A stretch of 63,499 nt of DNA, the filler included, from Bigelowiella natans CCMP2755 (taxonomy: Eukaryota > Protista > Cercozoa): assembly GCA_000320545.1 (NCBI GenBank). It is 4 parts of 4 records of this genome, joined end to end, with 100 filler letters (N's around TTAATTAATTAA, not from the genome) between each part and the next. Parts side by side here need not be neighbours in the genome. Positions count along the whole stretch, not along the records: positions 1 to 28,477 come from ADNK01001119.1; 3 more parts are not named here. One strand, written 5' to 3'. Within the stretch, counting starts at the first letter, position 1, and each line of letters opens with the position of its first letter. The notes under the pieces are model-generated. The model was not told where the DNA came from, did no database searches, and saw nothing but the letters and a program-made list of their open reading frames with translations. A program made the position numbers and the translations under genes. Shown here one piece after another: positions 927 through 44,090 of the stretch.

Positions 927-1679
927 AGATGAGACAGCAGTAGCTACGCAGCGAAGACGGCTAGACAGCTATCTAGCTTCATATGTTGGATTTCTCTTTC
1001 TCTGACAACTAAAGCAGCTCATGAATTGTGCAGAACTAGCTAGCTAGCATAGACAACATATGTTCATTGGTGCTAATTGTAGGCTAAAAGTTGCAAGTCT
1101 GAAGTGCTTTCTAGCTTTCTAGCTTTATTGATATTATTGCACTGATGATTGTAATCTGCTAGTGATGCTCTGTTGTGTCGATCATATCGTACTAGCTAGC
1201 TAGTAGCTAGATTATAGACAGACGCTACGACATCGTAGATGACTGTGACTCCTCTAGATTTATCCATTTATTTTAGTATCCTAGACTTTTACGTGAGAAT
1301 ATGTGCTGGCGTATTTTACATCGGCTACGCTAGTACGCTACACTGCGCCGATGTATAATAATAACGAATGCACTGAACTAGCTGAGGGCAAGTAGCGCGC
1401 TCTGCATGATCGTAAATCGTACATTATATATTTTTTCAGCGATAGCCCAGTAGTAGTCAAAATGTACATATATCATCTAGATATTTCTTCGCATCATAGC
1501 TAGATAGCATGACCCAAGTGATCCGAATCTTATAGCATGTAATAAAAGCAGAAGCAGGAAGGCATTAGGCATGAGCAGAGCTAGAGAGGCGCAGATTCAC
1601 GTAATAATACAAAACCCATGTCGCAATGCTATGCACTTTAGTAAAGCAAATAGTCGTCTTTGCTGTTTCACCACAAGCA

Positions 1680-3973: not shown

Positions 3974-5402
3974 GAACAACAAGACTGTAAAGTCATCAAA
4001 CACAGAAACACGTCGATGTTACGCTCACGTCGGAAGGTTCTGGTCAGAAAGCAAACACGACGAAGAAGATAAGAACGACGCCAAAGGCAAAAGAGAATGG
4101 AAGCTCCACACGTGTCACTTCTCTGACCACTCTGTAGATACTATTGTGAAGGATTACATCCAACGAGGAGTGCCATTGGTGATCCGCGGCTTAGGCCCGG
4201 CGCTATACGGTGATAAAATATTAGCGGCATTGGGGCATATAGGGCCTGATAGTTCCGAGGACTCCGAAGATTCTGATGATTCAGAAAAAAAAAAAAAAAT
4301 CAAGCAGAAAGACGAGTCGCCACCGCTCCCATCAACTCGCGATGTCTTGGAATACTTGAGCATGGTCGCAGGGACAAAGAGGGTGGGGATTTATTGCAAG
4401 AATAAGGCCAGTGAGCGTGAAGGGGGCGATGATTCGTGTGGAAAGAAGGATCCATTGGGCGGTGTTTGCTTTGCGAAACTTGAGGAGTATTGCAGGCATC
4501 TAATGGACAACCACATCGACAAAAAGGCTAACGGGCCGCAACCTTCAACCAATGAGAACGCTGGCAACACCGACGACGAGACAAATGTGTTTCAGGACAC
4601 GATCGGACATTATCTGTACGACGTGTCACTGAAGAAGCAGCTACCAATATTGCTAGATGACTTCAGGCTGCCACGCTACATTCAGAAGGACTTCTTGCAG
4701 CGCACAATGCGTAGGCACTATTTTGTTGAATCGTGGCCTACGCTATTTGTGGCTAGCCCGGACACAAAATCCACGCTGCACATCGATCAATGGCATGGCA
4801 GTTTTTGGATGGTGCAAGTGGCCGGGTCAAAGAGATGGACCATGTTCCATCCGGACGACTATTCAAATCTAGACCCCATTTACCACCCCGACAGCATCAA
4901 TCGGGCAAAAAAGGGAAACAACTCGGAGAAGGTGAAAGAAGAAGATGGGAATGGCGAGTCAGAAGCACAGGAGCCAATGCGTGCAGCCTTCCGCGATCTT
5001 CGAGAGATGGAGAAAGCAAATGTGGAGTCGGATGGAAAGGCACACCCTAGACTCTCAAGCGCACGAAGGGTAGAAGTCGTGCTCACACCTGGTGATCTTC
5101 TGTTTGTGCCTGGTGGCACACCACACTTTGTCGAGAATCTTGGCGTTACAGTGGCTTATGCTGGCAATTTTGTGGATGCAGGAAACTACAGGAAGGCGGT
5201 GCATTGTGATCTCTTCCACATGGCTAAACGCGGTGGGGTGTATGAGACAACCCATCGAGCTCTGTCTGAGGTCTGTTTCGAAGACGATGAAGATGAAAAT
5301 GGGACGGGGGAGGGCGTTCAAAATAAGAAGGAATCTAGTGCAGCCGATTACACAATAGATTATTTCGACGACTATTCGGGGCTTCAAGGGATGATGCCTT
5401 GA
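3974..5402 (+). CDS. JmjC-domain 2OG/Fe(II) oxygenase (JMJD4/JMJD6-like); long terminal exon, 5' exon(s) probably near 3305-3447
   Basis: PLVIRG, YLYDVSL, WPTLFVASPDTKSTLHID (HxD), GSKRWTMF, LTPGDLLFVPGGTPHFVENL (distal His), AGNFVD. The ORF start at 3828 runs through a (CA)n intron, so the true start is uncertain. Confidence 0.88.
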
Positions 5403-6310
5403 ACAACAGCGCGCTGTTCACATGCGATGCTTTAAAAGGACAACCATCGCATGTGATCTTTATTCCTCATTGCATCATTTTCTACCTCCTTCGACTTTAT
5501 TTCGTTGTGCATGTGCAGTGCACACTACCTAGACTACGCACGCAGGCGAGGCAGGAGAGAGCATGGGATCATCATCGATCATGTGTAAGCTTCTAAGCTT
5601 ATGATGATTGATAGCGCCAATAAACAAACAATTGCATTGCTGCGATGCGATAAACAAGTAGCGTGCGTACGTGCTGCTGCTTCGATTCTTTTCAGCAGCA
5701 GTCGCCGCGCAGCATGGTTGGCGCATTTGCATTATTAGAACATGACAATGGAATGCATGGTAATTTTCGAGTAGCAGAGCGAATGCTAACGCCCGCCGGC
5801 GGTCGTGCGCAGCCTACTAACGTAACGTGTAATATGTATGTGTGCGCCAATGATTGCTCACATTTATTATTCGCATGGATCAATAATCAACTACTGTGTA
5901 ATACAGTCCTCTAGTGTCTCATGCACATGCATGCTACCTAATAGCGCGCTAATATGTTGCCGCGCCTCAAGCTAATAATAAGTATGCACATGCGCTTCTG
6001 TTGTAGTCAGCGGGTGCTTCGATCAGTGGTTTGCATTCTGTCTGACAGTAGTTATATGCCCGCGCCCCAAATGAACGTGCGATGCAGCCGAGAAGGCGCA
6101 TCATCCTTTATTCAAAGAACAAGGAATTTTTCAACCTCAGCCAACACATATATGTGTGTGTGTGTGTGTGTATATATAGATATATATATTTAACATATTG
6201 GGTGATAATGTAAATTACTTGTGTATTGACGGCTGTATACGGAACACTATTATGTGTCTCTTATGCTTGAAATTTAATCTGATCCAATGCAACTTCATCG
6301 GCTACAACAC

Positions 6311-6348
<38 letters not shown>

Positions 6349-6467
6349 GTATGCATGCGTTGAAAAATATATAGAAGAGATACAGAATAACACAATATCG
6401 TGTTCACATTTATGCAGAAAAGAAAAAAATGTTTGGTGTAGTTATCGTTCGTGATGCAATGATTATA

Positions 6468-6498
<31 letters not shown>

Positions 6499-6684
6499 GG
6501 ATGCACTTGGTTCGTAGATTCCCTTTTTGTCGAACTTCTTGTCTCGAACACTAAAACCGGAGGATTATTGCTTCGATATTACCGGTAGAGGGAGGTATAC
6601 TAAGTTGTCTCAGGGGTAAAATTCCCTACATTTCTTGGAAGATAAGAAGCCGAGAACGTTCCACTAGATCTGGTTGGGGAGGGG

Positions 6685-7749
6685 ATGGGGATCACGTACG
6701 CTCACGGCTACGTGTCTCCTACCCAGCTTTACAACGAACTGAACAATGCTTTCGCGTGTGTTTTAACTCTAGACATTCGAGGTATATCTACGGAGGAATC
6801 TCATATAGATTTTTCAGTGCTTGTTGATATCCGAAATAGCGCCTCAAAAATAGCGGAACAGATTTCGAAAGCTGTGGATGATCAGAAGCTTATAGACGTT
6901 CACTTGGTGCTTGTATCGGATGGATTAAGAAAGTTGTATAAATTGCCTCATATTATAGATAAGGCAATTTACATCCACAACAAACAGGTAAGATCGAAGA
7001 GTGATTAGGACAATGATTGTAATGAACACAAGGAAGAATCGGATCCATCTCATCAGATATTCTTTTAGGCAGCTCAAAAGAGAAGGATCACAAAGAAAAG
7101 CATACTCATAGGAGGTTTCCAGTCTTTTTTGAACAAATGGCCGTTTATGTGCTCGAAAAATTCCAAATTCGAACATGGGCGAATTTACCCGAACTGTGTC
7201 TTTGAGAGTCAGGGCCAATATGGGAAGCCTCTACGTGTGTTCATCAGTGGTTACGGCATGGCATGTGATCCTGTAATATATGATCCTCTATGCATAAACT
7301 CCGTCGTCAATGTCACCCCTGAGGTTCCGTTCGTTGACCTGAAAGACGCAGATAAGGACAAGGCACTCCGCAAATTCCGAATTGCCATCATCGATGAGCC
7401 TGGACAAGGGGGGAAGCTGGTAGAGATGCTAGACGAAGCATTCGATTTCATCAATCAAGGGCTTCACCTTGATGTTAAAAAATTTAAAGGGCACCAGAAA
7501 ACTACTGTCGGTGATGAGACTCGTGGTAAGACAATGAGAGCAACAAAAAACGTGCCATTAGGCGTACTCGTCCATTGCAAACACGGTCAATCACGGAGTG
7601 TGGCCGTAGTAACAGCCTGGATGATGCATATGTGGAACATGAACTACCAGGAGGCTTCACAGGCCATAAAAACTGCACGACCAAAAGCACGGACAAAGTT
7701 CAAGGAACATGTCGAGGGATGGGTTTCTTCGAAACAACGCGTAAAGTAG
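6685..7749 (+). CDS. Dual-specificity phosphatase with N-terminal rhodanese-like domain (MKP-like architecture)
   Basis: Intron 6988-7068 (GTAAGA...TTTTAG) joins LTLDIR... to ILIGGFQSFLNKWPFMC (rhodanese C-terminal motif). Catalytic VLVHCKHGQSRS and general-acid IIDEP loop are present. Confidence 0.88.
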
Positions 7750-8465
7750 GCAGAGAACCAAGTTTGATGCTTGCATTGACATCATCCATTGCTAGATTGG
7801 TTGCCATGAACTTGCGCCAACATTCTTTTAGCGATGACAGCCGTTTTCATCGTCACCATGATTTTCCGTTTTTGTCCTCGAGTGAGTCAGTGTTATATAA
7901 TGATGGCAAGAAAATGAAAACTAGCTAGCTAGCTCACATTTCGCGTCACGTGTTGCCATCAGCCGCTACGACTGACCGCCTGTCATGCAAATGAGACAGC
8001 AGGCCACATGCGAAGCTAGAGATGCGCTGCATGGACGGAATCATTGATCATGCACTTTTGTGAAGGTTGAGCTCGCTGACAATGAGCAGTCTGCACCACG
8101 CTATGTACATGCTAGCATGCGCCGTTGAACCCCCCTGGTCATGAGCATGTAGACACGTGTGTCATCATGGCGATCACAACAATCATGATGATGCTCGCAT
8201 GCACTGGATGACTGCAATGAAACTCTGCTGCTGTTCGACTGGTCTAGTGGTGTGTCTAGCCATAGCGGTTGCGATGCGTGCAATGTATAAATGATGCATT
8301 TCGATCAGGAAAGTCATTGCCTACACATATGCCACACTTCACATGACTATTGGAAAGATTTAATCACTTCATTACATCCGTCTCACATCTTTGAAATGCG
8401 CGACTACTTTGCACACCGAAACAACATGCATTTGATTGCATGAAACGTAACACATCATGGCGCGG

Positions 8466-8578
8466 ACGCCAACAGATTCAACATTAGCGCTGTAGCGCTG
8501 CATTGCGCAGCTACATAAGGATGACCATTGAACAAATCTAATTGATTAACTATATCCGTCTTACATCTTTGAAATGAA
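8466..8578 (+). repeat. Dispersed intergenic repeat, copy A (partial direct duplicate at about 8350-8398)
   Basis: Shares 24 identical nt (GCCAACAGATTCAACATTAGCGCT) and a 57-nt block (49/57 identical) with 33854-33948. Confidence 0.85.
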
Positions 8579-8622
8579 TTTGACAGTGCATGCAATCTGG
8601 TTAATGGACATTTTGGCAACAC

Positions 8623-11221
8623 TCATTCCCTGTTGGTTCCAGTACGCTGTGCATCCTCAAACACTTTTGATATCTCTTCAATATTTCCTCGATCTACACT
8701 TTTGCTTTTGACAGCTTCGTCTAGCCCTACCTCGATTTTCTTGAGCATATTCACATCATAATTCGGATCCGCTCTTATCCCACGTTGTGCTTGAATCGGA
8801 GACGTGCCATTTCCGAGCAATGTGATGCAAACTCCATTCTGATGTACCCGATCCTGGTCTATTCGACCGCACCTTCCCATTCGATGAAGGTGGATATCCT
8901 GTTGATAGGGTACTTCGAAGTTGATGACTACACTAACATCTGGAAGATTGAAGCCTCTCGAGAGTACATCGGTGCACATACAAATTTTATGTTTTCCTTG
9001 TCTAAATTCCTGCACGACCTGATAATAGTCATTGGTGAGATGATGAGGTGAAATGGTGGACAAGTTTCCACACGATTTACATGGTGGGGACCCTTGACTC
9101 ACGGTGATCAAACATGAAGAAAAAGCTTTTCTGTGTACCTTGTCACGTTCATCACCCTTCAATCTTCCGTGCAGTACGAGCACTTTAGTGTCCTTCATTT
9201 CTTCACTTTTTTTCACAAACCGATCCAGCTCATTAAGTGAAGGATGACTGTTACAAAATACGATGCACTGTCCCAAATCTTTTGTTTCCTGTTTTTGTAA
9301 ATATTGGCAAGGCTCAGTCAGAATCTACGTATATAGCTCAACAACGTGTCGCTGTACAGACCCAAAAAAATAATATATAGTTCGTCACCAGGGAGTCAGT
9401 TCAAATTGAATGTCACATACAGTAACATACAATCCCGCTATTTCTTATATTTCAACATGAAAAATACACGTCATAGCTCTAAATCCTAATTCTTCTTTCG
9501 CTCCCCCCCCCCCCCCCCCTTGCTATGAACAATAATTATCTCCCACAATGGGAAGGGGGGGGGGGGGGGGGGGGTCATGCTTCATAACCCATGTTTTGAT
9601 GGTACTTACCGCTTGGATTCCGTAGAGGTCAACGAGAAATTGCATTTTATCTTTGAAGTCGTTACACTAATAATAAAGGAAGATCTCCCGTTATTCTAGA
9701 CGTATTCACGAGAACACAATTCATACGCGTCGTGGGTCTGTGATATACCTGAATACAAATGCTACAGATACAATATAATGGAACAGATTACCTTAATTTT
9801 GTATTTCTTGATATAATCTCCTGCTAGATCTTTGGTGGTAACAGTTCGCACACTGTCGAAATTTTTACCAATAATGGTTTTGAAGCCAGTGAGAACATCT
9901 TTGTCCTTTTTTTTCTGTGAACTGTCGTCTGGGATCGTCGCTGACACCAAGATAATCTGATTACCAGAGAATAAATTCAAATTTCGTACATTATCAGAAA
10001 TGTATTGTACCTTCGATTTAGGATTTTTCTTTTTTATGCTGTCTGTGATCTTCTTGATTTGACTAAACGTCCTTTTATTATTTTCGCTCTTAATCAAGAT
10101 CTGAAGATAAAATAATTTCATTCGTTTTTCTCGATTAACACTTCAAAAGGATTCTCTAATTATAATAATCTGGAAGACAAAGCAGGTTCAGTGAGTGCAA
10201 TTGTCTTGTAAATACGATTCAGAGCAATTAACGTCAGAGCAATGTTCAATATTCATTAGTCGCTTGTGTTTTTGTGTATGGGGAGAGTAATACCTTATCC
10301 GCTTCATCTACCACGATCAGATCGATATCCTAATCATCCGTAATGATGGCAAATAGTAAGATCTTCTTGAAAAGATCTAACCCATCCTCAATTTTTTTTC
10401 AGTTGTTACCTCCCTTTTGAATCTCCTTTCTTTAACCATGGTAAAGTTCACAGATCCAACAGTGCCGACTAATACGCCATGAAGGAACAGAGTCCCAAGG
10501 AATACAAGTAAAATAAAAATTGAAGATTACATATCTATACTGAAGAGGAACTCTGTCGTTAGCTATTTGGACATTCAAATTATATGGAATAAAATTTAAC
10601 ATTTGGGTTACATATTACCGATTATGTGTGGAGCCCCATCTTTCACCTCGTTCCTGATTTTTCCTACCTTTTCTTTAACGCAAACCCAGACACGTACATC
10701 ATCTCCAGCCAACCTGTAGTTTTGTTCATTAGAAGCGTGTTGCTAGTTACATTGTTGCCCAGTGTCCAAATAAGAAATTATGTTTGTAGATGAGGGTGGA
10801 GAGACGAGAGAGTTATAAGAAGACTGGGAGATGAAGATTAAATCACTCACTTCGATAGTTCCTCTGCAGTCTGTGTTGCCAACTCTCTAGTGTCACAAAA
10901 GATGACAGCCTGTAATCCTTTGTTAAGATCTAGCTTCCTCAAAACGGCGAAACCAAACATTCCCGTTTTCCCTGAACCCAATTCAGCTTGTGCCACGATA
11001 TTTTTCTCAGAATTAGCATCTTCATTGGAGACAATTTTCTTCAAGACTTGCACTTGAATCTCTGTAGGACCTGATGTCCATCCCAGAACTCTCTCGGCAT
11101 TAGTGATGTATTTTTGTGGAATGGCGTCCTTGACGTCTTCCCAAGAGAAACTTCGCACGCCTCCGGCATTTTTGCCTTCGGCTAAACTGAGATTTTCCAT
11201 TGTTGAGGGGAGCTCGGCCAT
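8623..11221 (-). CDS. DEAD-box RNA helicase, divergent (Dbp5/DDX19- or eIF4A-like)
   Basis: Spliced motifs: PTEIQ (Q), AELGSGKT (I), DTRELA (Ia), GTVG (Ib), LIVVDEAD (II, about 10295-10330), VSAT (III), IVFCN (IV), TDVLSRGFN (V), HRMGRCGR (VI). Confidence 0.9.
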
Positions 11222-11929
11222 GTTTTATGTCACAAAGCGGTCCTTGCAGAAACAGCCTAGTCCGTCGTCAACCCAATTCTCAAACACTCTTCTTTTATCA
11301 GATCAAGCTGTACAATTCCTCATTAGATAAAAACTTGAATTTTATCCTGCGTCAAATGTTACCACGTGTCGTTGTTTCATCAATCATTCGCATTGTGCAG
11401 AATGCAGATCTTGTCTGCAGTTTATTCTTTGTCTTCGAAAGTTGGGCCAGATTTGCCGGGGATTTAGATGGCTGTGCCATTGTATCGGGTAACTGCAGAA
11501 AATGTTTGAAATTCCTGGGGGAATTCGGGAGATTCGCAACAAATAACGGAGTTCTCTGTTTTGCAAGCTAGCGGTAGTTTCTCAGTTGTCGTAGGGACTT
11601 GTTAAATGCTGATTATTGAACATTCTCCTGAAGAACGAAGCTCACAATTACGCATATTCGTGGTTTAAATCCTTGTCGTAGGGCCGAAATCCCATTTGCT
11701 TTGGTAACGTCGTCGCATTTTGCAGAAAGGATCGTACAGAGAAGCAATGTCCTCCGCACCCAATGACTCCAAATCGTCTCAGCCAGGCACTTCATCCAGT
11801 TTGTTTGTATTATTGCACGAATGCGTGATTTTTCCCGCTGTTGGTCACGGGGGGTGGGTGGGGAGAGATTATCGTATCACATCATTTCTGCAGCTAGTAC
11901 CGATATACGCATTCTTCACAGAGGCCAAG

Positions 11930-12848
11930 ATGGAGGAGCTCAAGTTGAGCTCGGGCTATACGATGCCGATTCTAGGGCTCGGCACCTGGAAGTCTAAGGT
12001 TGAGAACATATGATCATGTCAGGAATTCCTTTAGAAAAATAACACACATCATGGGGAGATTCCCTTCCCACGAATGTTGTCGTTAACATCATCATGGACG
12101 TGCGTTCGTCTGGTTTTGCTGCGTTACCTTACCGATAATAGCCCGGGAAAGTTGAGCAGGCTGTCAAGTACGCAATATCAGAGTGTGGATATCGTCACAT
12201 CGACTGCGGTAGGGGGAACACACCATTACGAAGGACTTAAACCAACGAACTCACCGACATGAACATTCCAACCTTCCAGGACCAAAGAGAGAGGGGGGGG
12301 GGGGGGGGGTTCTTCTCTAAGCATCTCTCTTATTTCCCACCACTATAGCTGCCATCTATGGGAACGAGGTTGAGGTGGGCAATGCCCTGAAGGACTGCAT
12401 GGAGAATAAAGGTGACTCTTTCTCCCGTTTTCTAGTGAGGCTCAATATATAGCAAGAAAAGTGGGATGGAGAAAGGCAGAAGACTGCGTTATCAATACAC
12501 ACAATGAACATATTAATAATGATCTGCATATAGGGATAAAACGAGAGGAGCTGTTTATTACCAGCAAGGTGTGGAACCTGTATCACGCAAAAGAGGAAGT
12601 CCTTCCGGCCTGCAAGAAGACTCTGAAGGACCTGGTCAATGTCACTCTAATCTCGTGGCGTATGGGATCTGTCATACTAGCACGAACAATGATTTTTACG
12701 CTGTTGTTGTTTGCGAAAGAATGGGCTTGGTAATGAGTTAGCTTCGTAATTGGTCAGGGCCTCACTTACTTGGATCTCTATTTGATTCATTGGCCAATGG
12801 GGTTGGTGGTTGCGAATGATGTATATAATAGTGCACATGAAGATATAA

Positions 12849-12895
<47 letters not shown>

Positions 12896-13751
12896 CTGCT
12901 CACCCTCCCACAGTTATTACCATGCTCACCCTCATCATCAGTAGATAAAGGGAAGGACCAGCACGTTTCATTTTTCTACCAATGCATAATCATCACTGCT
13001 GCTATTGCTCTAATGCCAATCGGATTTGTTATTATCACCGTCTAGTGCCGATGTAAGAACATAGGGACACTAACATATCACCTGCCATCCTCGCTCCTCC
13101 CCATCCTCACAAGAGTAATATTTCTCACCTAGTTTCACGCTTATCGACGGAAACTATAAGCTCAATAAAATTCACTACACGGAAACATGGTATATCCTGT
13201 AGTTTCTGGAAGGCAGGCGGGGGGGGGGGGGGTGATATTGCAAGCTGGAAGCTGCATCTCGGACATAACTCTACCTCTCTTTCACACAGGGCAGCAATGG
13301 AGGAACTTGTTAAAAGCGGCCTGGTGAGATCCATTGGAATCTCCAACTTCAACATAGAACAGGTTGTCAAATGATAATACATACACGGCGAGAACAGGGG
13401 AGGGGGAGGGGCGGCGAGGAAATCACAATGTGGATTGAATGTTTATGTCCGGTTCAGTACTGCTATCACCATTATCATCGTTATCTTCGTCATCATCATC
13501 ATTGCCATCATCTACATTAGGTTGATGACATTATGAAGATGGCCAAGATCGCTCCTTCTATCAACCAGATTGAGGTTTTTCCCTAATCATTCACTCGCTG
13601 CCGATAGGGCTGCCTCATTTTCTTTGCACGAGTTTAGGTCTCCACAATTCATGTGATGTGGTCCATTGCGGCAATCTCGTTTTCATATTCCTCGTTATCT
13701 TTCTCTTTCTACGTCACATGTGTAAATTCACAGCTGTCAGTATTACACACA

Positions 13752-13788
<37 letters not shown>

Positions 13789-16077
13789 ATGCACGCATCA
13801 GTCCAACCCTTATATCGCTCAAACGGAACTCATTTCCCACTGCGAGAAGCATGGGATTAAGGTCTCCCCCTCCTCTTCCCCCCCCCTCCAGTCTCACCTC
13901 CTTGCTTTCTACCCCAAAGACACAGTTTTTACACGTATAATCATGTCTGCTTGGAAATTTTTTTTTATGATATTTCGCCGTTTACTTACTGCTGGCGCAT
14001 ACGAGTTGTCTTTCCAAACACCAGATGTATTGCGACGACGATGCATCATCATCATCATCATTATCATGAATCTTGATCACGATCTTTCAGATCACCGCCT
14101 ACAGCCCCCTCGGGTCGCAGGACAACCCAGCACGGCAAGAACGCTGGCCTGTACTGCTCAAGGATAAGGTGCTGCTTAAGATACGCGCTGCTGATGTATA
14201 AAGATCTGAATTGTGATGTATGCAATCCAACAATTCACGGTGGTACTGTTTAAATAAACTCTGCTCTTTTGTTTCGACTCCACAACCCGCTCTTTCTTTT
14301 CTTTCTTCACCGACGCTGCCAACGATCGCTCACTGCGCACTGCGTGCGTTGTTAATGTTCGGACTTTCTAGGCCGTCGTGGCGCTCGCGAAAAAGTAAGT
14401 TCTCTGTATGCCTCTCCTCCCGTCTACCATTGGGGGGGGAGAAACCTTCAATGAAGAGCACATAGATAGTTCTTCGTTTTTCCTTCTTGTTGCAATTCCG
14501 CTTTCATATTCGTCCATAGCTGTTGTTATGGATCATGATGGCCTCGGCGATGGGGATTCTGCTTGTGCTTCTACTTCCACTACTGCCTCCTCTTCTGCTC
14601 GTGACATATTGTGATAATTCATTATTAAAGATACGGGAAAACACCGGCACATATTTGCCTACGCTACCACATCGAACGGAAAGTCTCTGTCATTCCCAAA
14701 TCAGTGACTCCATCACGAATTGTACTACGCAGAAACACACATATACCAATGAGAGGAGGAGGGGAAAGGGAGGGGAGGGGGGAGAGGTACAACAGCAGCT
14801 TACTTGGAGGGATTGTGGAAACTAGTGTGTTTTTGTCATCATACCCATTCCATATGAACTCTTCGCAGAATGAATGTCCTCATCACCCTTCTCCCCCCTC
14901 TTTCTCTCTCGCCCATTCTCTCTCTCGCTCTGTCTCTTCTTTTCTCTTTCTTTCTGCCGTATTAAGCTTCTTGCCCACCATGTTCTCGTACACCCATCTC
15001 GTGGGAATATTACTCAAAATTGATACTTCCGATAGAATTTTTGGGTAGTTCCGGCGATATTTTTTCCCGTGAAAAGGCTCGGAGTGCCTCGCAGCTCTTT
15101 GCTTTCATAACAGCCACCATTCTTCCTTGTAGTCTTCCTCAGTCATTCGGTGGTGTGTATTGTTGTTGTTTTTGTTGTTGTTGTTGTTGTTGTTGTGACA
15201 CAGGCCGCGAATATCGATGTATTCAATTTCAAATTGACGGCTGAGGATATGAAGGTGATGATGACTTGGGAACAACAACACGCCATTACGAAAACACAGG
15301 CAGCACACTCCCAGCAGCTGGGTTGCATCTGATCACGTGACCACGGGATCGCTTGCCTATTTGTTGAAATGTTGTCCTTCGTTTGCACACATCCATTGAT
15401 CGATCAGGACTTGGAGAAAACGGAGTTCTTCAGATCGTGCTGCCCTCCCAAGGAGATCGAATGGAAAGGTTGTGAATATCGCTAGATTTAGATAGGGAGG
15501 GGTAGCAGCGAGTAAATGTATTATGCGAAAATATCACGTGCATATATTCTGTATCTTGTCTCGCCAGCATGCAGCGGCGTAGCGAAATGATTGAGTATTT
15601 TTGCCTCCCCGTTACCTATCCGTGTATCAAATACGTTCATGACAGGGGAAAAGATTTTTATTCCACGAGATCTATGCCATCCCTACTTCCCCTTCGAGGT
15701 CGGTTTTTTCGTTTTTTATCTCACCAGAACATGAAACCGGGTACCCGATTGTATTCTTTAATTCGGATCCGAAATTTGTGTGAAAACAACGGTGATTTTT
15801 GACCTGTAACGTGGCTGCATGTGACGAGGGGCAGAGATCACGGAGATTCCGATTTCCCCAGAATTTCTCCGAATATTTCAATTTAGTTTATGTGATATTG
15901 CGTTCTTGCAGAAACCAGTTGAGAAGAAAGGTAGGGGGGGGGGGGGGGAAGGAGCATCTCAGCCTGCCCTCATCAAATAATTCAAATCGGTGGTAATCGT
16001 CGCAGGAGTGTCTGGAGAAGTTCAAAGACATTCGGGCGGAGTATCAAGATGAAAGGGGCTGGGCTCCTGAAAAATAA
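11930..16077 (+). CDS. Aldo-keto reductase (AKR1-like), 16 exons
   Basis: MPILGLGTWKS, GYRHIDCAAIYGNE, REELFITSKVW, LDLYLIHWP, MEELVKSGLVRSIGISNF, ITAYSPLGS, VIPKSVTPSRI, HPYFPFE and ERGWAPEK-stop. All 15 introns are GT-AG and keep frame. Confidence 0.95.
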
Positions 16078-16689
16078 GAATCGTTTGCACGCGGCGTTTG
16101 GATGTGTATGGGGAATGTGAGGTCACTGTGCAGAGACACAACAGCAGCTTTCTATTTCGGTATTATGTCGCAGTATGCGACCAACATATGGTGCCTCAGG
16201 AATTTTAAGTTATAACTTGCTGTGGCTATGCTGTCTCGCACGTGTAGAAGCTGCGTGTACTGTACAAAGACTTTCATCAACATTGCCACCAGTCGGTGCT
16301 GGCCTTGGCAGCACACAAATGGCATAGACTGATAAATGCACCATGTCCTACCTGGATTACATGGGAATGAGCTGAACCAAAATGACGATGCAGCGCAAAT
16401 ATTGGGTGAGCACATTTCATTTACACACAACAGTGTAAATGATATTCGTATCCTAGAGTAGACATCGCTCGGCTGAATTGCGTAGGGTAATACATTTAGA
16501 GGACAGGCACGACCATTATTGCAGGTCGAGAATATAAGTCAAAACTATATCACAATGATACTGAATAACTAGCTAACGATGCACCCCAGCTAGCCAGGCA
16601 CATGCGCAGGCCATACTAGCATATACTAGCATAGCTAGTATGGCCTAGTACATTAGAACCGATTAAATGCGCGCATCAATTTTCGACGG

Positions 16690-16930
16690 TTGTGCAATGC
16701 TAGAATGGCCAAGAGCTAGCTATATTGTCTTGTCCTACAACTGGTATGATGGCAGCGCGTCGTTACATATGAGATGGATGTAATGAATTGATACATATAT
16801 GGCTGGATTTTATAATTTTAATTCACTGTAGCCGCTACATTCTAGCATTGCACAGCTACATCAAGGTGGCCATTGAAAAGATGTAATTAATCCATTATAT
16901 CCGTCTCATATGTATATAGATGTCGCTGCA
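16690..16930. repeat. Cluster of the same repeat family in both orientations (inverted arrangement)
   Basis: TGTGCAATGCTAGAATG (16691-16707) is the exact reverse complement of 16837-16853. ACATATGAGATGGATGTAATG (about 16765-16785) pairs with CATTATATCCGTCTCATATGT (about 16893-16913). Confidence 0.75.
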
Positions 16931-17251
16931 TGCGCTTGTGTTGAAAAAATACTACAGCTAGAGGGCGCTAACTACGATATACATACGCCCGCCTTACATC
17001 TAGAAATGCGCATTTTAAGCGAGGTCAATAAAGGATAGAGGATAATAAGTAATAACGATAACCAACAACAGTAATAAATAACAAGCCGCCAAGTTGAGAA
17101 GATATAACTAGATAACGCAGCATCTATGCCACTAGCCGAAACGCGCGGCTTTTTGATATGGTCTATGCGAGGCAATAAGTAGAAAATGCGAACACATGTA
17201 TATCATTATCGCACTGTTAATGTGTTAGTTTCCCCCCTTGCAGGCTCTGCT

Positions 17252-17846
17252 CTAATTGCCTGCCTTTAAGGAGCGCAGCTTAGTTGCGAGCTGCTTGTTC
17301 TCGACTTTGATCTGCTTCAAATCGCCCTCCACGCGCTTCATGTTCAACCCGGTATTCTGCGCCTCGAGCGCCTCAATCTGCGTTTCGTAGGCGCGGATCT
17401 CGTTCTTGGTGCGGCCGGTGTCCTCCACCGTCTTGACGAGGCTATCGAAGCCCTCGCGTAGAGTCGCTAGGTTCTCATACGCCTTCAGCCCGGCGGAGGC
17501 GGAGCCTCGATCGGACGACTTTGCGGCATCGAAGACCACTTTCTCGCAGATGTCAAAGCTGCGGCCTGAGGTGTCGGAGACGCTGTTGATGTCGCGCTGC
17601 ACCCCACGGACGTCGTTGAGGATGTTCTTGATCTGCAGCTTCTGCTTGTCGAGGTTCTTCATGATGTCCATTATCCTCCGGATGTAGACCTGCCTATTGA
17701 TGCTCTTGGGCATCTTGTTCAGCTCTGCGACGAGCTGCTTGTACCTGTTGTTCGTCGTAGTCGTTTTGTTGTCCAAGGTAGAAGGTTCGCAGTCAGTTGC
17801 GCGTGCATACATGTATTGTGTGTGTGTGTGTGAGAGAGGGAGAGAA

Positions 17847-21608: not shown

Positions 21609-22634
21609 ATGAAACCCGAAACTTCATCTTCATCTAAAATTGTGATTCAACGCAATGAGGGAAAAGAAATTACAGGATCCAACAAACGCAAGCACGGAGA
21701 AAGTGCTGAGGAGGGGCGCGCACGCAAAAAAGCAGCAAAAGCAGCTGCAAGTGGGACAGCTGCTCTATCAGCCCTTGGTCTTGGAACATATGGAGGATCA
21801 GACGATGACGAGGCATCAGAGGATGAGAATAATGGGGTGGCAGGTCTAGGTCTGCTCAGTTACGACTTCGAAAAGGAAGATGAAAAGGATGAGGAAGAGG
21901 AGGAGGACGATCCGGATGTGTTCGACATAACGAAGTCGAAATTCCGCCATCTGTTAGAATTGAACCTTTTGCCTCCTGAACCAACCGGTCGTGTCGAGCC
22001 AGGGATTCAACAAATTGTGGAAAAGCATGTAAACACAGTAAGCAACAAGAAAGACAAAAAGAACAAAAATAGTGCAGAGAATAAGAGACCGAGCGTGAAC
22101 GAGTCCCTGCGCTCGTTGAAGGGTTTCCACAATCCGTACATCCTACAGAAGGTGGCGGAAGAGTTCAAGATCTATCCAACAGGTTCTAACTACCCGCGCC
22201 ATCTATTCGATCCTCGCAGCATACCACTTAGAGACTTCTACGAGGAGGTAAGCAAGGCGCAGAAGGCCTACGAAGGGCAAAAGGCGTCATCGTCGCACGC
22301 ACAGCAGCAGCAGCAGCAAAAACAGCAGAAACAGGGATCACAAATAAAACCGATTGGAATCGGTGGCGGGCTCGTCCGAAACCACTCGGACTCCAGTGTG
22401 GCCCTGTTGTCGGCTCAAGCTCGCGTCGCTGCGGCGCGGAACTCTGCCGCTGCTGCTGCCGGCCTCGCCTTCCAGCGCGCCCGAAGCGTTGCTCAAGCTG
22501 TTGCACAGAAGGTTGGATCCGTGGGTGGCGTGCCCATCATCGCTCAGAACCCTGTGATCACGAACCCGAAGCTGCAGAGCATGATCGCGCAAATCCAGCT
22601 GCAAGTGAATAGGAAGAATAAGGGCGGTATCTAA
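21609..22634 (+). CDS. SAP30BP: SAP30-binding protein / HCNGP-family protein, intronless
   Basis: Acidic N-terminus; LLPPEPTGRVEPGIQQ...SVNESLRSLKGFHNPYILQKVAEEFKIYPTGSNYPRHLFDP...FYEEV matches the remembered HCNGP core. Confidence 0.85.
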   Translation: MKPETSSSSKIVIQRNEGKEITGSNKRKHGESAEEGRARKKAAKAAASGTAALSALGLGTYGGSDDDEASEDENNGVAGLGLLSYDFEKEDEKDEEEEEDDPDVFDITKSKFRHLLELNLLPPEPTGRVEPGIQQIVEKHVNTVSNKKDKKNKNSAENKRPSVNESLRSLKGFHNPYILQKVAEEFKIYPTGSNYPRHLFDPRSIPLRDFYEEVSKAQKAYEGQKASSSHAQQQQQQKQQKQGSQIKPIGIGGGLVRNHSDSSVALLSAQARVAAARNSAAAAAGLAFQRARSVAQAVAQKVGSVGGVPIIAQNPVITNPKLQSMIAQIQLQVNRKNKGGI

Positions 22635-23754
22635 AGGTCATCGTCTAATTCGACAATCACCACCGACGATAGTTGGTGGGGGCATGCGCGTAATGAATGA
22701 GCAGTAGTGTAGTCATTGTAAGGCGAACCTCCTGTACAGTAGTACGCCCTTTTCAGCTTTGGAAATATTAGCTCATATTTATGCAAGACGTGACCCCGCA
22801 TGTTTCTGTCAGCTTTCGTCATATGCCTATCCTTTGAACGTTCTTCGATTTTCCCCTACGACTCACTCATTTCCAACCATCGAACATCTTTCCCCCACCA
22901 TATCCCAAACTATCATTCCTGGCAAGCAAGATTATGAAATATAAATGAGCTTCATTTGACAAGGTATTTACATGAGTAGTCCAACACGATGAGATTGCGG
23001 AATCTGTTATATATTCGTAACAGCCAGTAAATACATGGATATGTACATGTATACTAGCGTATATATATCGTGGAGACTGCTATTTATATCTAGATCGACG
23101 GTTCATGTTTTGTGACACACAGCTTGTGTAAGCTAGCTAGCTAGTAAGCCTGAGTATTTAGTATATTAGTCTGCAAGCACGCTGCCCTTGATCTAGCACA
23201 ACCTCTCTAGCGAGATCTAGGAGATGGGAACATGCTAATTTGTGTTGCAAATGTGATGCGATGCTGTGTGAATTCTGCAGTCTATGGCGGCAGTACTAGC
23301 TAGCTAGCAGAGTACGTGGCGTGCCGCTGCGACATAGCAAATTTGTTTAGTGCATCGTGAATGTGCAACCTACGCAGCCATCCGTGGCTATCTCGGCTAC
23401 ATCGCGCTAGCTAGCTTGTGGCGCCTGCACACTGCTATCTTGACGAGGATTCGTCATGACATAATGTCTAGAATTCAGTGTGAGATGGATGTAATGAAGA
23501 TGTTAATAATTCAGTGTACACCACGTACACAATCTAGCAATGCCTACACAATGCGTTCCTGTTCCATGCAGCCCTAGAACTTGCGCCAATGTAACGCATC
23601 ATACACACGCTAGACACGGCTCACGAGCTCGATATGTTCAAGCTAAGCGCTGCTTAGCATCTAGCACCATAGCATGGCTGTTGAGTGCGGGCGTACACCA
23701 TCCTCTATCTAGTCGCAGATGATTCTATCGGCATGATCTCGCGTTGTCCACACA

Positions 23755-33251: not shown

Positions 33252-33850
33252 TTTCCTTCTTTCGATGCAAACCCTTCATTTTTTTCAATATATACAGATC
33301 ATTCACAGCTTCCATCCAAGCTTCCCATCGATGTCCACGCCGCTGCACTAGGTAGAAACAGCTTACAGCAACCACAGCTCGACAGTCCACCCTCACCACC
33401 ATCGCGTCCATTGTTACAGCGAGATCCAACTGGTGATCTTCATCCAGCAGAAGCAGTGTATATATATGATATATAATTATTATGCACACGGCGAAGGACC
33501 GCCTATATAAATGATTATCTTGGTGCTCCTATTTATTTTGAGTAAGAACAAAACGCTACATCGAAAGTTACTTGTTGTGGGCATGAGCTATGCACATCTT
33601 TTCCTATATGCGCACACAGCAGTCATGTGGATGGTATCTGGCAACGTGATAGAGTGATAAGCGCCAGGGATGCTCCGTGCTCGTAGCCGTGCAGCTGTTT
33701 TGCGTGATCGAACTAGACACTTACACCGTCATCGATGCGTACACTAACTAGTGTAGTCGTGGAACTAGGTACGTCGCCAAATACATGGAGCATGCATGTA
33801 CGTAGTCATCTACAAACACACACGTGTTTTGCACGCATGGGTCTTCAAAT

Positions 33851-33948
33851 GATGCCAACAGATTCAACATTAGCGCTATAATTTTACAGCGGCTACATGA
33901 GGATGGCCATTGAACAAATTTAATTGATTAGTTACATTCGTCTTGCAT
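33851..33948 (+). repeat. Dispersed intergenic repeat, copy B
   Basis: Direct visual alignment with 8466-8566. Confidence 0.85.
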
Positions 33949-34006
33949 GCGCACAGCAGCGCACAGCAGGAGTAGTGCTCTTCGCGCTGTTGTCGCCGGT
34001 CAGCCG

Positions 34007-40147: not shown

Positions 40148-41733
40148 TATGTGTAAGAATCTCGAACATAGAAGTAGCGTATCGATAGTCGTAAAGCGTA
40201 TACGCAAAATTGTGTTGGCGTAATGTGCTTGGTGCTGCTCGCTGCATGCACGCACGCGCTGGTTTGATCTCCTGCGTCCTTAGAAGTCTCAAATGCATGC
40301 ATATGAACATCTAGATATGCATGTGCGCAAATAGCACGTACTATCGTACGTATTAGTAATATGACATGCGCGATCCTGCTTGGGCTGCGCAATGCTAGAA
40401 TGGTTGCTCCCTCTTTCGGTTTGAGCTGAGACATAGACGCTCAATCCGTTGCTTTTGATCATTGTTGTCCCAATTCATCAATTGGTCGCTCGCCCAAGCT
40501 AGCAAGCCTGCGCGGCTGTAAACATGCTGCATATGTTGTTAATGTTGGAAGTTCTGAGAAGTTTCGGGAGGCTTCGGGTAGCTTCCGGAAACTTCGAGAA
40601 TGCGACTTCCGCACGAACCCAATGTGCATGCATGTGACAAGAAGTCAAAAATCATCACACAATTCAAATGGACAAGTGACCTTTCGCTCACAACACATGC
40701 GCTGACTAGACGTATTCAGAGACGCTACCTGCTACCAATTTCTAGAACTGCAGTGTCTGCAAAAACATGTGCTCACATTGGAAGATTGCACAATGAGTAG
40801 TCAATAAACCTACAATGAATAGCTAGTTGTCCATGCATGATTTAGCAGGTGTGTAAGAGATGGGTGTGTGATTTTACAGCATGCTAGCATGCTGGAGCAC
40901 AGCTGCATGTAGCTAGTGTGATGACACACAATGTTGCACAAATATTAATAATTTGTGATTCGACATGATGCTAGCATGCCAGTTAGCCAGTCTAACAGTG
41001 CATGGCATGGCGGTGTGAAACCAGTTTGGTGGCATTCATGGCAAAGCTAGGAAGTTTTTAGCGAATTGCAAGCGATGCAACATGCTGACGGACGTTGCGG
41101 GTCATGCATGGTGACTAGGCTGACCATATTTACCTCGTGCACATGGCAACATCTAGACATGCACATGTGATTCATGCTCTCGCCACCGCACCATGTCTAT
41201 AGCAAATGCACATGATTTTGCATCCTCTTGCCATCATGCCACCCTATATGAGATGGCACACAGTCCGCCTTAGGTGCGTCTATCGCTGCATCGCGCAAAT
41301 GGATGCACGCACAAATGAACTGTTTGTTAACAGGTAGGTATAGGTCAAACACCACGAAGCATCTCCGTGTTACTATCACGCCCTCTGTCGCTTCAACAAA
41401 CCCGAAACATACGCTAACATCATTCATCACGCTGTTCTGATAGCTGCAATTTTTCGAGCGTTGGAATTTCCGACAACGGTCCAACAATTGGAACTCCCTT
41501 ACAAAAAATCATCAATGTCATAATGGCACGAGAAGGGTGGAGAAAATTTGTACCGCTGCTATGTATTCGGCGACGACCTGCGTTCCCTTTTGTGCTTGCA
41601 ACCTTATTTTTATTCCCACATCCATGATTCCCCATCATTAATATCACATTACAAAATCGATTTAACGACACAATGTGGATGATTTGCATAAGTGGATCAA
41701 CGAACACTATGGACGCCTTCTTGTAAAGACGGC

Positions 41734-42491
41734 TCAGCTACAGGACCGGAACTGTTTCTCTCACCTCACCTGTGCGGAAGCATTCTGATCTGGATCTCCA
41801 CCAATTTGTGCAAAGGGCCAAGCCATTCCCTCCTGGGATTATTGAATGAACTTGTTTGTTGGCCATCTAGGAATATACGCTCCGCTGTTGTACCATCTAA
41901 TATCTAGAAGTAGAGTTGAAGCTATTTCCGCTACCTGTGCCGACTTGCTAATTCCGGCTCTAAAACCTCCAAAGCTGCGATCGTTGCCCCCAGTGTGCAC
42001 ACGAAACCTGCAAGATGTCGCAGAGCACACAATGCATCATCTAAAAGCTTCGCATCTGACTGTCTCTTTTGGGTTAGTGTCGGTGAGTGAATGCTCGGTT
42101 CTCAGCCATACTTCCAACGTTCGCATTGCGCTTACATCGACGGATCATGAGCCTGGTGGCCACACACAGCAAATAATGATGTACTGTGGAACGATGAAGG
42201 GCGCGAGCAGCAAGCTCACGCCTTTGGAAGGAAAGGGGGAGTTTCAGGTGGAAGGAATATAAGTACAACGAGGTTGCCTGGAGACATGTGATTATCTCAA
42301 CGACCTTCCATCAGCTTTTGCCGCCAGGTTTATTGGAAGAGCTGCCTTTGGCAGGTTACTCAATTGAGGAATTCCTATTTCATTCATTGGTATCATCGGA
42401 ACAATGCGGTGGGGCATGGAAATGAGAGGATGGCAGTAGAGCGACTGCAAGCAGCGGCGCAAGCATGCGAGGAGAGAGCGAGAGCGAGAGC

Positions 42492-42533
<42 letters not shown>

Positions 42534-43988
42534 ATTACTAATATTAGAATTTAGAAGTAATTCGAAAAAAATGAGATAAGTATCAGCATGGATTATTTGA
42601 AATTGGATTTCGGCTTCTATCCGCATCGTATGGTCAAAACCCATCGATGGGGTTTCGCAGTCGTCTTAAATCCTCCAAAAACACCATTTCCCCTTAAATG
42701 ATATAGGCTGATTTGTTCAAAGATCGACTAACTAACTGCCTGACTTCGGAGCAGCTCCTTCGTCTCATGCCAGGTCCCATCCAATACCTGAGAGGGAGAG
42801 TGGCACAAGGAGATACATGAGCGATGGAGAAATAATCCTACGACGGTGAAATTGGACAAATTTGGGAGATGGATCAAAATGATGAGGGCATTCGATGGGG
42901 GAAGGGGGAACTAGATACAGAGAGCGCAGCGCGAAGCTACCAACAAGAAAAAGATAAAAACAAAAAATGCGTCGGTTAAGAGAATCCTAACTACGGTCCG
43001 GTTTACAAGTAGAGTCTCGACGGATTGACGACTTTCTGGAGATTCCGGGGACGGCATTAGCATCTTATCCAAATCAACTGCATCCTTCCCCGGGTAGAGG
43101 ATGATGGTCCTGCGTTATTCGATGGTGTGTTATCAGCAAACTGCCATATCGGAAAGCTACCCCACATAGCGCAACAATACAATTTCGACTTCGATTTCGG
43201 CGTTCTAGCGTTGCATGGAACTATTGTTTGGGGGGGGGGAAGGGGTAAGTTCTGTTTCCTCGTAAAACACAGTCGTAACTACAGTTCTCTTAGGTAGATA
43301 AGACTGCGCGGCGTGGGTATTCTTTTCGTGAAGTGATAACCACCCGTTACGGCCCTCTCCCAGCGCTTGATCCAGGCTCGGATACCTTGATATTATTCAG
43401 CAGCCAGCCCATCGGAGGACGACAAAGATCTTAGGAGAGACTTCACGACACACTATGGCAAACTAACCAGTTTTTTTCTTTCTAATTTCTCAACTCCATT
43501 AGCGACGAAAATTACATTCTGAGCAAAGATGCGGTCTCCTCTTGGGAGCCCGATGTTCCTGAGAGCGAGAAGAACCACCGACACGTATTCACGTGTACCA
43601 TGACAAGGGACGGGGAAGGAGGAGGAAAGGACGAATAGCAACGAAAACTCAACAAGTCGTTGGATTGCTGTCACACATTATGTTTGCCTTTGTTTCGGGA
43701 TGACCTTCCGGATGCACATATCGGCACTCGATTACTTCACAGCCGGCGAACACACCTGAATATACAACTCAATTGCCACTCTACACTTTGCAATTGCGCG
43801 GCGTGGTTAGTGTGCATACCCACACGCTCGTACATAATCATATAATACTGTGGGCAATATGAACGGTCATTTTGTTCCTTCTCCTATCTGTTTACTACCA
43901 GGGCATAAATAACCTGATATGATAAAATCAAGGAAGAGAAATCGAGAGGAGGAAAAAAGGAGACGATAGAGAGAAAGAGAGGGAGAGA

Positions 43989-44033
<45 letters not shown>

Positions 44034-44049
44034 GGAGAGAGATGGAGAA

Positions 44050-44090
<41 letters not shown>

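What the first reader, a model, noticed from the sequence alone, without database searches (positions are those of the whole stretch)
927..1679. Tail-to-tail spacers switch to palindrome/RY-alternating DNA
Seen by eye: the convergent spacers (927-1679, 7750-8622, 16078-17251, 22635-23754, 33252-34006, 40148-41733, 52929-54213, 57630-58971) are packed with CTAG/AGCT/TGCA/CATG/GCGC. Examples are ACTAGCTAGCTAGCAT (1035), CTAGCTAGCTAGCT (7921), AGCTAGCTAGCTAGT (23131) and GCATGTACGTATCATGTGATGTGCACATGATGCACA (about 53997). They nearly lack the microsatellites and homopolymers typical of the introns. Inference: a distinct sequence compartment, such as a modified-base or heterochromatic boundary, a termination zone (compare base J at trypanosome convergent regions), non-B DNA, or the mutational scar of cytosine methylation.
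Basis: partly seen in the sequence, partly recalled or inferred. Interest (0 to 1): 0.72.

Follow-up and report, generated by a model that had tools for sequence, protein, structure and literature searches.

The report
Algal gene-end DNA hosting LINE tails
In what is likely the marine alga Bigelowiella natans, the DNA just past the ends of genes has its own purine/pyrimidine-alternating, CTAG-rich, microsatellite-free make-up and carries short 3' stubs of an abundant jumping gene (a LINE), so it is likely a gene-end zone that doubles as a landing ground for that element rather than a methylation scar.

Summary
All 8 spacers have purine/pyrimidine alternation 0.556-0.615, against 0.424-0.552 in 6 divergent spacers and a mean of 0.493 in 43 introns. 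They hold 1 microsatellite in 8.9 kb, against 45 in 8.3 kb of intron. It is not specific to tail-to-tail spacers: the one head-to-tail 3' flank (5403-6070) scores 0.615, though without CTAG. CpG and TpA are not depleted, so neither a CpG-methylation scar nor this alga's TpA mutator explains it. Gene-oriented GTGTA and TTATT motifs point to 3'-end signals. New here: six stubs in four spacers are the last codons and 3' UTR of an APE/RT LINE. A full-length copy has a 9-bp target duplication and a window copy a 14-bp one; summed contig depth is over 1,000-fold single copy. The stubs are only 5% of the spacers, and the composition persists without them. Verdict: a real gene-end compartment, cause inferred, used as a LINE landing ground. 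The scan earlier noted the CTAG-sparing TpA mutator on other pieces of this genome; its look-ups returned neither this compartment nor this LINE.

The parts
927..1679 (.). S1 convergent 3' spacer (unidentified + gene / tetraspanin); richest in CTAG
   Evidence: RY 0.556, CTAG O/E 7.0
5403..6070 (.).
   Evidence: RY 0.615; no long minus-strand frame; single-copy depth
7750..8622 (.). S2 convergent spacer (dual-specificity phosphatase / DEAD-box helicase)
   Evidence: RY 0.588
8343..8387 (+). LINE 3' stub S2a (45 bp)
8398..8565 (+). LINE 3' stub S2b: about 40 last ORF2 codons plus 3' UTR, inserted at the 3' end of S2a and flanked by a 14-bp target-site duplication (about 8385-8398 and 8563-8576)
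   Evidence: summed depth peak
16078..17251 (.). S3 convergent spacer (aldo-keto reductase / CCDC22)
   Evidence: RY 0.589
16768..16792 (-). short LINE 3' stub in opposite orientation; with the next part it forms the 29-bp inverted repeat
16824..16910 (+). LINE 3' stub S3 (87 bp)
22635..23754 (.). S4 convergent spacer (HCNGP/SAP30BP / NAT10-like acetyltransferase); RNA contigs reach 22976; the covered part is ordinary (RY 0.504, 0 CTAG), the rest RY 0.613 with 19 CTAG
23479..23516 (-). degenerate LINE 3' stub (38 bp, 10.4 bits)
33252..34006 (.). S5 convergent spacer (protein kinase / phosphotransferase-like gene called by eye)
   Evidence: RY 0.585
33826..33943 (+). LINE 3' stub S5 (118 bp)
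40148..41733 (.). S6 convergent spacer (RING/FYVE gene / DTW-domain gene); right border uncertain, 41420-41733
   Evidence: RY 0.577
52929..54213 (.). S7 convergent spacer (peptidase S26-like / phosphatase-like); includes an AT-rich degenerate repeat at about 53640-53830
   Evidence: RY 0.615
57630..58971 (.). S8 convergent spacer (unidentified + gene / RING gene)
   Evidence: RY 0.570

Best explanation
The DNA downstream of gene ends here, tail-to-tail and head-to-tail alike, is purine/pyrimidine-alternating, poor in homopurine tracts and microsatellites, and carries 5'-truncated 3' ends of a LINE retrotransposon; it is likely the alga's gene-end zone (3' UTR, poly(A) and termination region), into which the LINE inserts and is likely tolerated. 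Shown: the composition; its presence in a tandem flank; gene-oriented GTGTA and TTATT motifs; the identity of the stubs as the ORF2 C-terminus plus 3' UTR; target-site duplications; and that the full-length copy landed in DNA that was already CTAG-rich. Inferred: the composition builds up because this DNA is free of codon, splice-site (polypyrimidine) and promoter constraints, is turned over by short slippage of self-complementary four-base units (CTAG, ATGC), and keeps UGUA-type and U-rich 3'-end signals. Also inferred: the LINE, which shows no poly(A) tail and joins CA/TA/TG-rich targets, ends up here through a mix of target preference and removal of insertions elsewhere.
For: Composition in 8 of 8 spacers and the 1 tandem flank. 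The signal starts within 100 nt of the stop codon (0.557) and peaks at 400-500 nt (0.631) over 17 gene ends (11 in the peak bin). Sense versus antisense counts in the first 450 nt: TTATT 21:2 (p=7e-5), GTGTA 25:4 (p=1e-4; 512 pairs tested, so borderline after correction), TGTA 54:31 (p=0.017). The most frequent period-4 runs in the spacers are ATGC (9) and AGCT (7), neither among the ten most frequent in introns. Pyrimidine triplets have O/E 0.5-0.84 against 0.95-1.3 in introns plus divergent spacers. LINE: L005 encodes Exo_endo_phos_2 plus RVT_1; window 8416-8538 matches ORF2 residues 1122-1160; 11 of 16 related proteins end at the same motif, and 7 of the 16 are jgi/Bigna1 models. Target duplications: 14 bp (S2b) and 9 bp (L005, 4.9-kb insert). 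Summed contig depth at 8507 is 21,575 against 12-16 and 90,771 against 64-75, from 81-82 contigs, with a sharp right end and unlike flanks. A profile built without window copies finds 6 hits above 7 bits, all in spacers. All 4 independent metagenome sites carrying the stub have RY 0.57-0.63 around it; two lie just downstream of a host gene (L001 kinase, L007), one probably does (L002), and one is the full LINE.
Against: The cause of the composition is not shown; there is no genome-wide test because no genome is held. There is only one tandem flank, and it lacks the CTAG component. Divergent spacer D1 is intermediate (0.552). The RNA-covered 342 nt of S4 is ordinary in composition, so the signal is not simply 3' UTR sequence. 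AATAAA runs 1:9 and TGTAA 11:10 sense to antisense, so no known poly(A) signal was identified. Only 2 of 9 stubs show a convincing target duplication. Variation among stubs is not biased to third codon positions (8 of 21 changes). The metagenome loci were fetched with the stub itself and their flank values include it. Depth ratios are a rough index, not a copy number, and the two DNA runs may be the source of this assembly.
Confidence: 0.5

Rival explanations
1. The spacers are graveyards of older LINE 3' ends and other repeats decayed beyond recognition; the composition is inherited from them.
For: The 3'-most 500 bp of the L005 LINE have GpC 1.6-1.7, CpA 1.6-1.9 and CpC 0.4-0.75, like the spacers. 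Stubs cluster: 2 in S2, 2 in S3, 2 in L002, and several genomic contigs join one 3' end to another (table 5).
Against: Detectable stubs cover 481 of 9,556 bp (5%), and masking them leaves RY unchanged. Outside the stubs, T1, S2 and S3 are at single-copy depth at 80% likeness. No upstream ORF2 fragment was found in any spacer by tblastn or a protein profile. L005 inserted into DNA that was already CTAG-rich.
Confidence: 0.15
2. A damage-driven mutation bias in poorly repaired, untranscribed DNA past gene ends, for example UV lesions at adjacent pyrimidines without transcription-coupled repair, erodes YY steps.
For: Cytosines next to pyrimidines are depleted (TCC 0.51, CCC 0.53, CCG 0.49, CCT 0.59), while GCA (2.16), ACA (1.50) and GCG (1.54) are enriched. 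In S4 the signal is stronger beyond the RNA-covered part.
Against: UV C-to-T changes (recalled) are transitions, which keep YY steps and should raise TT, yet AA/TT rho is 0.84 and TTT 0.84. GCT (1.66) and CTAG are enriched. Divergent spacers do not show the shift.
Confidence: 0.12
3. The known TpA-to-CpA/TpG mutator of B. natans, which spares CTA/TAG, acts on the spacers and turns TA-rich repeats into TGCA/CATG while leaving CTAG.
For: The mutator is reported in this species (10.64898/2026.01.13.699255). In the L007 LTR body 46 of 49 surviving TpA are in CTA/TAG. S2 and S6 have reduced unprotected TpA (O/E 0.28 and 0.60).
Against: Spacer TpA rho is 0.95, higher than in introns (0.79), divergent spacers (0.68) or coding DNA (0.56), against 0.20 in the scrubbed LTR. 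CTAA, the best-spared context in the LTR (0.84), is low in spacers (0.57). The scrubbed LTR has normal RY (0.481), GpC (0.99) and CpC (0.91). It may act patchily but cannot be the main cause.
Confidence: 0.08
4. The spacers are a modified-base or heterochromatic boundary (base-J-like or methylated), with the palindromes as recognition sites.
For: CTAG stays at 77 against 27.6 expected after all masking (z 10.6), and AGCTAG is 47 against 5. B. natans has an H3K9me3/H3K27me3 state on transposons and silent genes (10.1101/2025.03.17.643675, passages).
Against: No CpG or CWG depletion. CTAG is near background in T1, S7, S8 and absent from the L007 flank. No modification data could be examined.
Confidence: 0.1
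5. The sequence is selected to form Z-DNA or cruciforms at convergent ends.
For: Short palindromes and inverted repeats exceed dinucleotide shuffles (z 5.0-8.6), and RY runs of 12 or more number 24 against 11.
Against: After collapsing period-4 runs and removing the S7 AT patch and the stubs, z falls to 0.5 (6-mers) and 2.8-2.9 (8-mers, hairpins). Convergent transcription builds positive supercoils, which disfavour these structures (recalled). The perfect (AC)n and (AT)n tracts lie in introns, not spacers.
Confidence: 0.05

Closest known systems
ApT/TpA-rich inverted repeats and UAYRUA efficiency elements at S. cerevisiae gene ends (Miura et al., PMC6420913; abstract, first part of Results and one Discussion section read)
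   Same: RY-alternating, self-complementary words concentrated downstream of stop codons, linked to 3'-end formation.
   Different: In yeast the words are AT-rich and lie about 20-90 bp upstream of poly(A) sites. Here the bias is GpC, CpA/TpG and CTAG, spans 0.7-1.6 kb, and in S4 is stronger beyond the RNA-covered UTR.
APE-type non-LTR retrotransposons (LINEs) with 5'-truncated copies; those with simple-repeat rather than poly(A) tails (CR1/L2/RTE-like, recalled)
   Same: ORF1 plus endonuclease/RT ORF2, a cysteine/histidine motif near the C-terminus, shared 3' end, variable 5' truncation, target duplications of variable length.
   Different: The 3' UTR is only about 25 nt, most copies seen are under 170 bp, and they sit in gene 3' flanks. 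The clade was not determined.
TpA hypermutation of integrated viral DNA in Bigelowiella natans (Mettrop et al., bioRxiv 10.64898/2026.01.13.699255; parts 1-3 of 5 and passages read, supplements closed)
   Same: Same organism (inferred); both give CpA/TpG enrichment; the mutator has hit the L007 LTR and the 3' 1.2 kb of the L005 LINE.
   Different: The spacers keep TpA and gain GpC and RY alternation, which scrubbed elements do not.
Base J at trypanosomatid convergent strand-switch regions
   Same: Location between converging genes.
   Different: Genes here are individually oriented and spliced, and a tandem flank shows the same composition. No modification evidence was obtainable.

Membership tests
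APE-type LINE (non-LTR retrotransposon), for the dispersed stub | Autonomous copy with endonuclease and reverse transcriptase in ORF2, preceded by ORF1 | tested here: met
   L005: 1160-aa frame with Exo_endo_phos_2 (1e-17) and RVT_1 (2e-16); upstream 489-aa frame without Pfam hit
APE-type LINE (non-LTR retrotransposon), for the dispersed stub | Copies share the 3' end and are variably truncated at the 5' end | tested here: met
   Window stubs of 25-168 bp end at the same 3' motif; sharp right end with unlike flanks in genomic contigs; 11 of 16 related proteins end at the same residue
APE-type LINE (non-LTR retrotransposon), for the dispersed stub | Target-site duplications of variable length | tested here: met
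   14 bp at S2b and 9 bp at L005; none convincing in the other 7 of 9 copies
APE-type LINE (non-LTR retrotransposon), for the dispersed stub | 3' tail of poly(A) or a simple repeat | tested here: inconclusive
   No poly(A); junctions continue into TA/CA/TG steps, at most a few bases of tail
APE-type LINE (non-LTR retrotransposon), for the dispersed stub | Clade placement by RT phylogeny | not tested
MITE (Tc1/mariner- or Sola-type) | Terminal inverted repeats at both ends of most copies | tested here: not met
   The 29-bp inverted repeat in S3 is two opposed stubs; L001, L002, L005 and L007 have no left repeat
Helitron2 / Helentron-associated HINE | Asymmetric or subterminal inverted repeats, 3' hairpin, insertion in TT without duplication (PMC3627910, PMC4067079, passages) | tested here: not met
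   Folding z -0.2 to -1.1 for 7 of 7 sequences; flanks are not TT; target duplications and coding origin shown
CpG-methylation scar | CpG depletion with matching TpG/CpA gain | tested here: not met
   CpG rho 0.95 in spacers against 0.83-0.99 elsewhere
TpA-hypermutated (RIP-like) DNA of B. natans | Strong TpA depletion | tested here: not met
   TpA rho 0.95 overall against 0.20 in the L007 LTR; partial only in S2 (0.48) and S6 (0.73)
3'-end processing / termination zone | Gene-oriented 3'-end motifs downstream of stop codons | tested here: inconclusive
   TTATT 21:2, GTGTA 25:4 and TGTA 54:31 in sense; AATAAA and TGTAA not enriched in sense
3'-end processing / termination zone | Mapped poly(A) sites and polymerase run-off inside the region | not testable with these tools
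   Only assembled contigs were available
Base-J or other modified-base boundary | Modified base mapped to the region and the modifying enzymes present | not testable with these tools
   No genome held; no modification calls available

The most novel reading that the evidence does not exclude
B. natans marks transcription ends with a dedicated sequence and chromatin domain (CTAG/GpC-rich, pyrimidine-tract-free), and a LINE with thousands of stubs actively homes to that domain, even to the 3' ends of earlier copies, as a terminator-targeting retrotransposon.
Probability: 0.2. Interest if true: 0.75.

Novelty: new variant of a known kind. Interest (0 to 1): 0.45.

Why it matters
Nothing on 3'-end signals, intergenic composition or this LINE in chlorarachniophytes appeared in the listings of my searches (listings only, and subscription papers are not covered). 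The compartment gives a sequence marker for gene ends in a model rhizarian. It also shows why some gene models are wrong: at least two jgi/Bigna1 models fuse host domains to the LINE C-terminus. ATAC/KAS/Hi-C (PMC8887012), histone ChIP (10.1101/2025.03.17.643675) and mutation-accumulation data already exist for this species, so the boundary, non-B-DNA and mutation-bias ideas can be tested without new experiments. If the LINE truly targets termination zones, it would add a new safe-haven rule to those known for compact genomes.

Tried and rejected
Whole-genome test: no genome is held. The repeat finder on the whole window was swamped by microsatellites. MITE reading from the S3 inverted repeat, and Sola or Helitron2/HINE readings: rejected once L005 showed the coding origin. 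Rfam: 0 matches at gathering threshold. Viral contigs: 0 hits for the core pattern and no CCDC22 relatives; 49 hits for a shorter pattern had unrelated flanks shared among themselves, with no profile match. L003 and L006 were chance pattern matches and were dropped; L004 is the same site as L001. RNA contigs from four marine metatranscriptomes cover the spacer cores and the stubs little or not at all; lack of cover is not used as evidence. The codon-position test on stubs was uninformative. A substitution tally in 7 stubs (26 transitions, 15 transversions) was too small and partly misaligned. CWG or CCWGG methylation as a source of CTAG: CAG/CTG O/E 1.14, and CCAG 0.63 is no lower than other CC words. 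Literature: no paper with Bigelowiella + DNMT5 + bisulfite; the 6mA survey PMC12695648 does not mention the species. Look-ups of earlier findings by sequence and words returned nothing on this element or compartment.

Full report
Organism and layout. The window is intron-rich eukaryotic DNA with three assembly gaps. The HCNGP protein at 21609-22634 is held exactly by JGI/IMG, Logan and MMETSP, and one of its three other relatives is a Lotharella protein at 40% identity. Relatives of the LINE found below are jgi/Bigna1 gene models. The source is therefore a chlorarachniophyte, likely Bigelowiella natans (inference; earlier scan notes say the same). No whole genome is held, so all statistics rest on this window and four metagenome sites. 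Pfam and RNA joints support the gene orientations on both sides of S2, S3 and S4. The other spacers have one side called by eye or by a weak hit.

The observation. With microsatellites masked, the eight spacers have purine/pyrimidine alternation 0.556-0.615, against 0.424-0.552 in six divergent spacers (p=3.3e-4) and a mean of 0.493 in 43 introns (p=2e-5). The dinucleotide signature is GpC 1.56, CpA/TpG 1.39, ApT 1.26, TpA 0.95, CpG 0.95, ApA 0.84, CpC 0.66. There is 1 simple-repeat array in 8,888 bp, against 45 in 8,316 bp of intron. TGCA and GCGC follow from the dinucleotide bias; CTAG does not (3.3-fold over a first-order model; 77 against 27.6 after all masking). So there are two layers: a general RY/GpC shift in every spacer, and CTAG clusters in S1-S4.

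Not only tail-to-tail. The 3' flank of the JmjC gene (5403-6070), which is followed by another plus-strand gene, has alternation 0.615 and GpC 1.94 but only 2 CTAG. No hidden minus-strand gene is evident there. Across 17 gene ends the alternation is 0.557 in the first 100 nt after the stop and 0.631 at 400-500 nt (11 ends in that bin). RNA contigs from marine metatranscriptomes extend 342 nt into S4; that part is ordinary (0.504, no CTAG), while the rest of S4 scores 0.613 with 19 CTAG. In the first 450 nt after stops, TTATT (21:2), GTGTA (25:4) and TGTA (54:31) favour the sense strand, while AATAAA (1:9) and TGTAA (11:10) do not. This fits a gene-end zone with oriented signals near the genes and a stronger symmetric signature further out.

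A CpG scar is not seen: CpG and CWG are not depleted, and transitions cannot alter RY alternation. The TpA mutator reported for this species (bioRxiv 10.64898/2026.01.13.699255; parts 1-3 of 5 read; supplements closed) was tested against an LTR element in L007. There TpA rho is 0.20, 46 of 49 survivors are CTA/TAG, and RY (0.481) and GpC (0.99) are normal. The spacers keep TpA (0.95) and are low in CTAA (0.57). Only S2 and S6 show partial loss of unprotected TpA. Short palindromes exceed dinucleotide shuffles (z 5.0-8.6; introns and divergent spacers do not), but most of the excess comes from (CTAG)n and (ATGC)n runs, the AT patch in S7 and the stubs described next (z 0.5-2.9 afterwards). Base J and chromatin marks could not be tested. 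An H3K9me3/H3K27me3 state on transposons and silent genes is reported for B. natans (10.1101/2025.03.17.643675, passages).

A self-comparison showed a roughly 100-bp sequence shared by S2, S3 and S5. Laying genomic contigs of two DNA runs on 5400-17400 gave summed depth 21,575 and 90,771 at position 8507, against 12-16 and 64-75 for single-copy DNA, from 81-82 contigs, with a sharp right end followed by unlike flanks. The rest of T1, S2 and S3 stayed near single copy. This is a rough index of over a thousand copies, not a count. A metagenome scan returned 7 loci, 5 genuine, representing 4 sites. In L005 the sequence is the end of a 4.9-kb element with ORF1 and an endonuclease/RT ORF2, bounded by a 9-bp duplication. 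The window copy S2b matches ORF2 residues 1122-1160 and is flanked by a 14-bp duplication at the 3' end of the older copy S2a. Of 16 related proteins, 11 end at the same motif. The stub is therefore the 5'-truncated 3' end of a LINE: the last codons, the stop and about 25 nt of UTR, without poly(A). A profile built from non-window copies finds six stubs, all in spacers S2-S5, and one chance-level hit elsewhere. At L001 and L007 the stub lies about 120 and about 350-470 bp past a host gene end, in DNA with alternation 0.62-0.63; L002 is probably similar. Two Bigna1 models fuse host domains to the LINE C-terminus, consistent with the same placement. MITE and Helitron2/HINE readings were considered and failed their tests.

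Cause and effect. The stubs cover 481 of 9,556 bp of 3' flank, masking them changes nothing, and the full-length copy landed in CTAG-rich DNA (12 CTAG in about 210 nt of flank, nearly all of it on the 3' side). The compartment thus does not depend on detectable LINE DNA. My best reading (0.5) is a gene-end zone whose composition reflects release from codon, polypyrimidine and promoter constraints, local slippage of self-complementary four-base units, and 3'-end signals. The LINE accumulates there through target preference for CA/TA-rich sites and tolerance. The composition and the LINE are shown; the forces behind them are inferred. Rivals are decayed older repeats (0.15), damage-driven loss of adjacent pyrimidines (0.12), a modified-base boundary (0.10), the TpA mutator (0.08) and non-B DNA (0.05).

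Comparison and verdict. The nearest known case is the ApT/TpA-rich inverted repeats at yeast poly(A) signals (PMC6420913; abstract, first part of Results and one Discussion section), which differ in base content and extent. Searches for a description of this compartment or LINE in Bigelowiella found nothing relevant in their listings. Distinct 3'-flank composition and transposons collecting in gene-end spacers are known kinds; this version is strong, apparently undescribed, and testable with existing data. Interest 0.45, new variant of a known kind.

Noticed in passing
L005:250-1450: Only the 3' 1.2 kb of the full-length LINE is TpA-scrubbed (rho 0.22 against 0.61 for the rest). A 99%-identical protein keeps Tyr/Ile residues that L005 lost. 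Because 3' parts are the high-copy parts, this hints at a copy-number- or homology-guided mutator; the shortest stubs keep their TpA.
   Followed up: partly
L007:2400-6162: LTR retrotransposon (integrase zinc-binding domain, weak hit) with TpA rho 0.20; 46 of 49 surviving TpA are CTA/TAG and none is ATA/TAT. It sits directly beyond the RY-rich 3' flank.
   Followed up: partly
window 8343-8576: One LINE stub inserted at the 3' end of another. Genomic contigs show several other end-to-end joins (table 5), suggesting repeated insertion beside earlier copies.
   Followed up: partly
window 11784-11918: First intron of the aldo-keto reductase gene appears to be GC-AG (RNA joint).
   Followed up: no
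window 8623-11224: DEAD-box helicase gene has a diverged second genomic copy with different intron joints (tables 3 and 5).
   Followed up: no
window 41420-45443 (-): Multi-exon DTW-domain gene (weak Pfam hits) whose first exon reads like a signal plus transit peptide (by eye); its last exon is uncertain.
   Followed up: partly
window 53640-53830: AT-rich degenerate repeat with a 46-bp near-perfect duplication at 52-bp spacing inside S7; the one TA-rich patch not eroded.
   Followed up: no
window about 28478, 48893, 62335: Assembly gaps with a 12-base all-frame stop linker between runs of N; the genes next to them are cut.
   Followed up: no
proteins P0007, P0008: jgi/Bigna1 gene models that fuse a kinesin or an LTD/LCCL protein to the LINE ORF2 C-terminus, probably annotation errors.
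   Followed up: partly
L008-L056: 49 viral contigs share an 18-base match to the LINE 3' UTR inside one conserved sequence context, apparently coding; unrelated to the element.
   Followed up: yes
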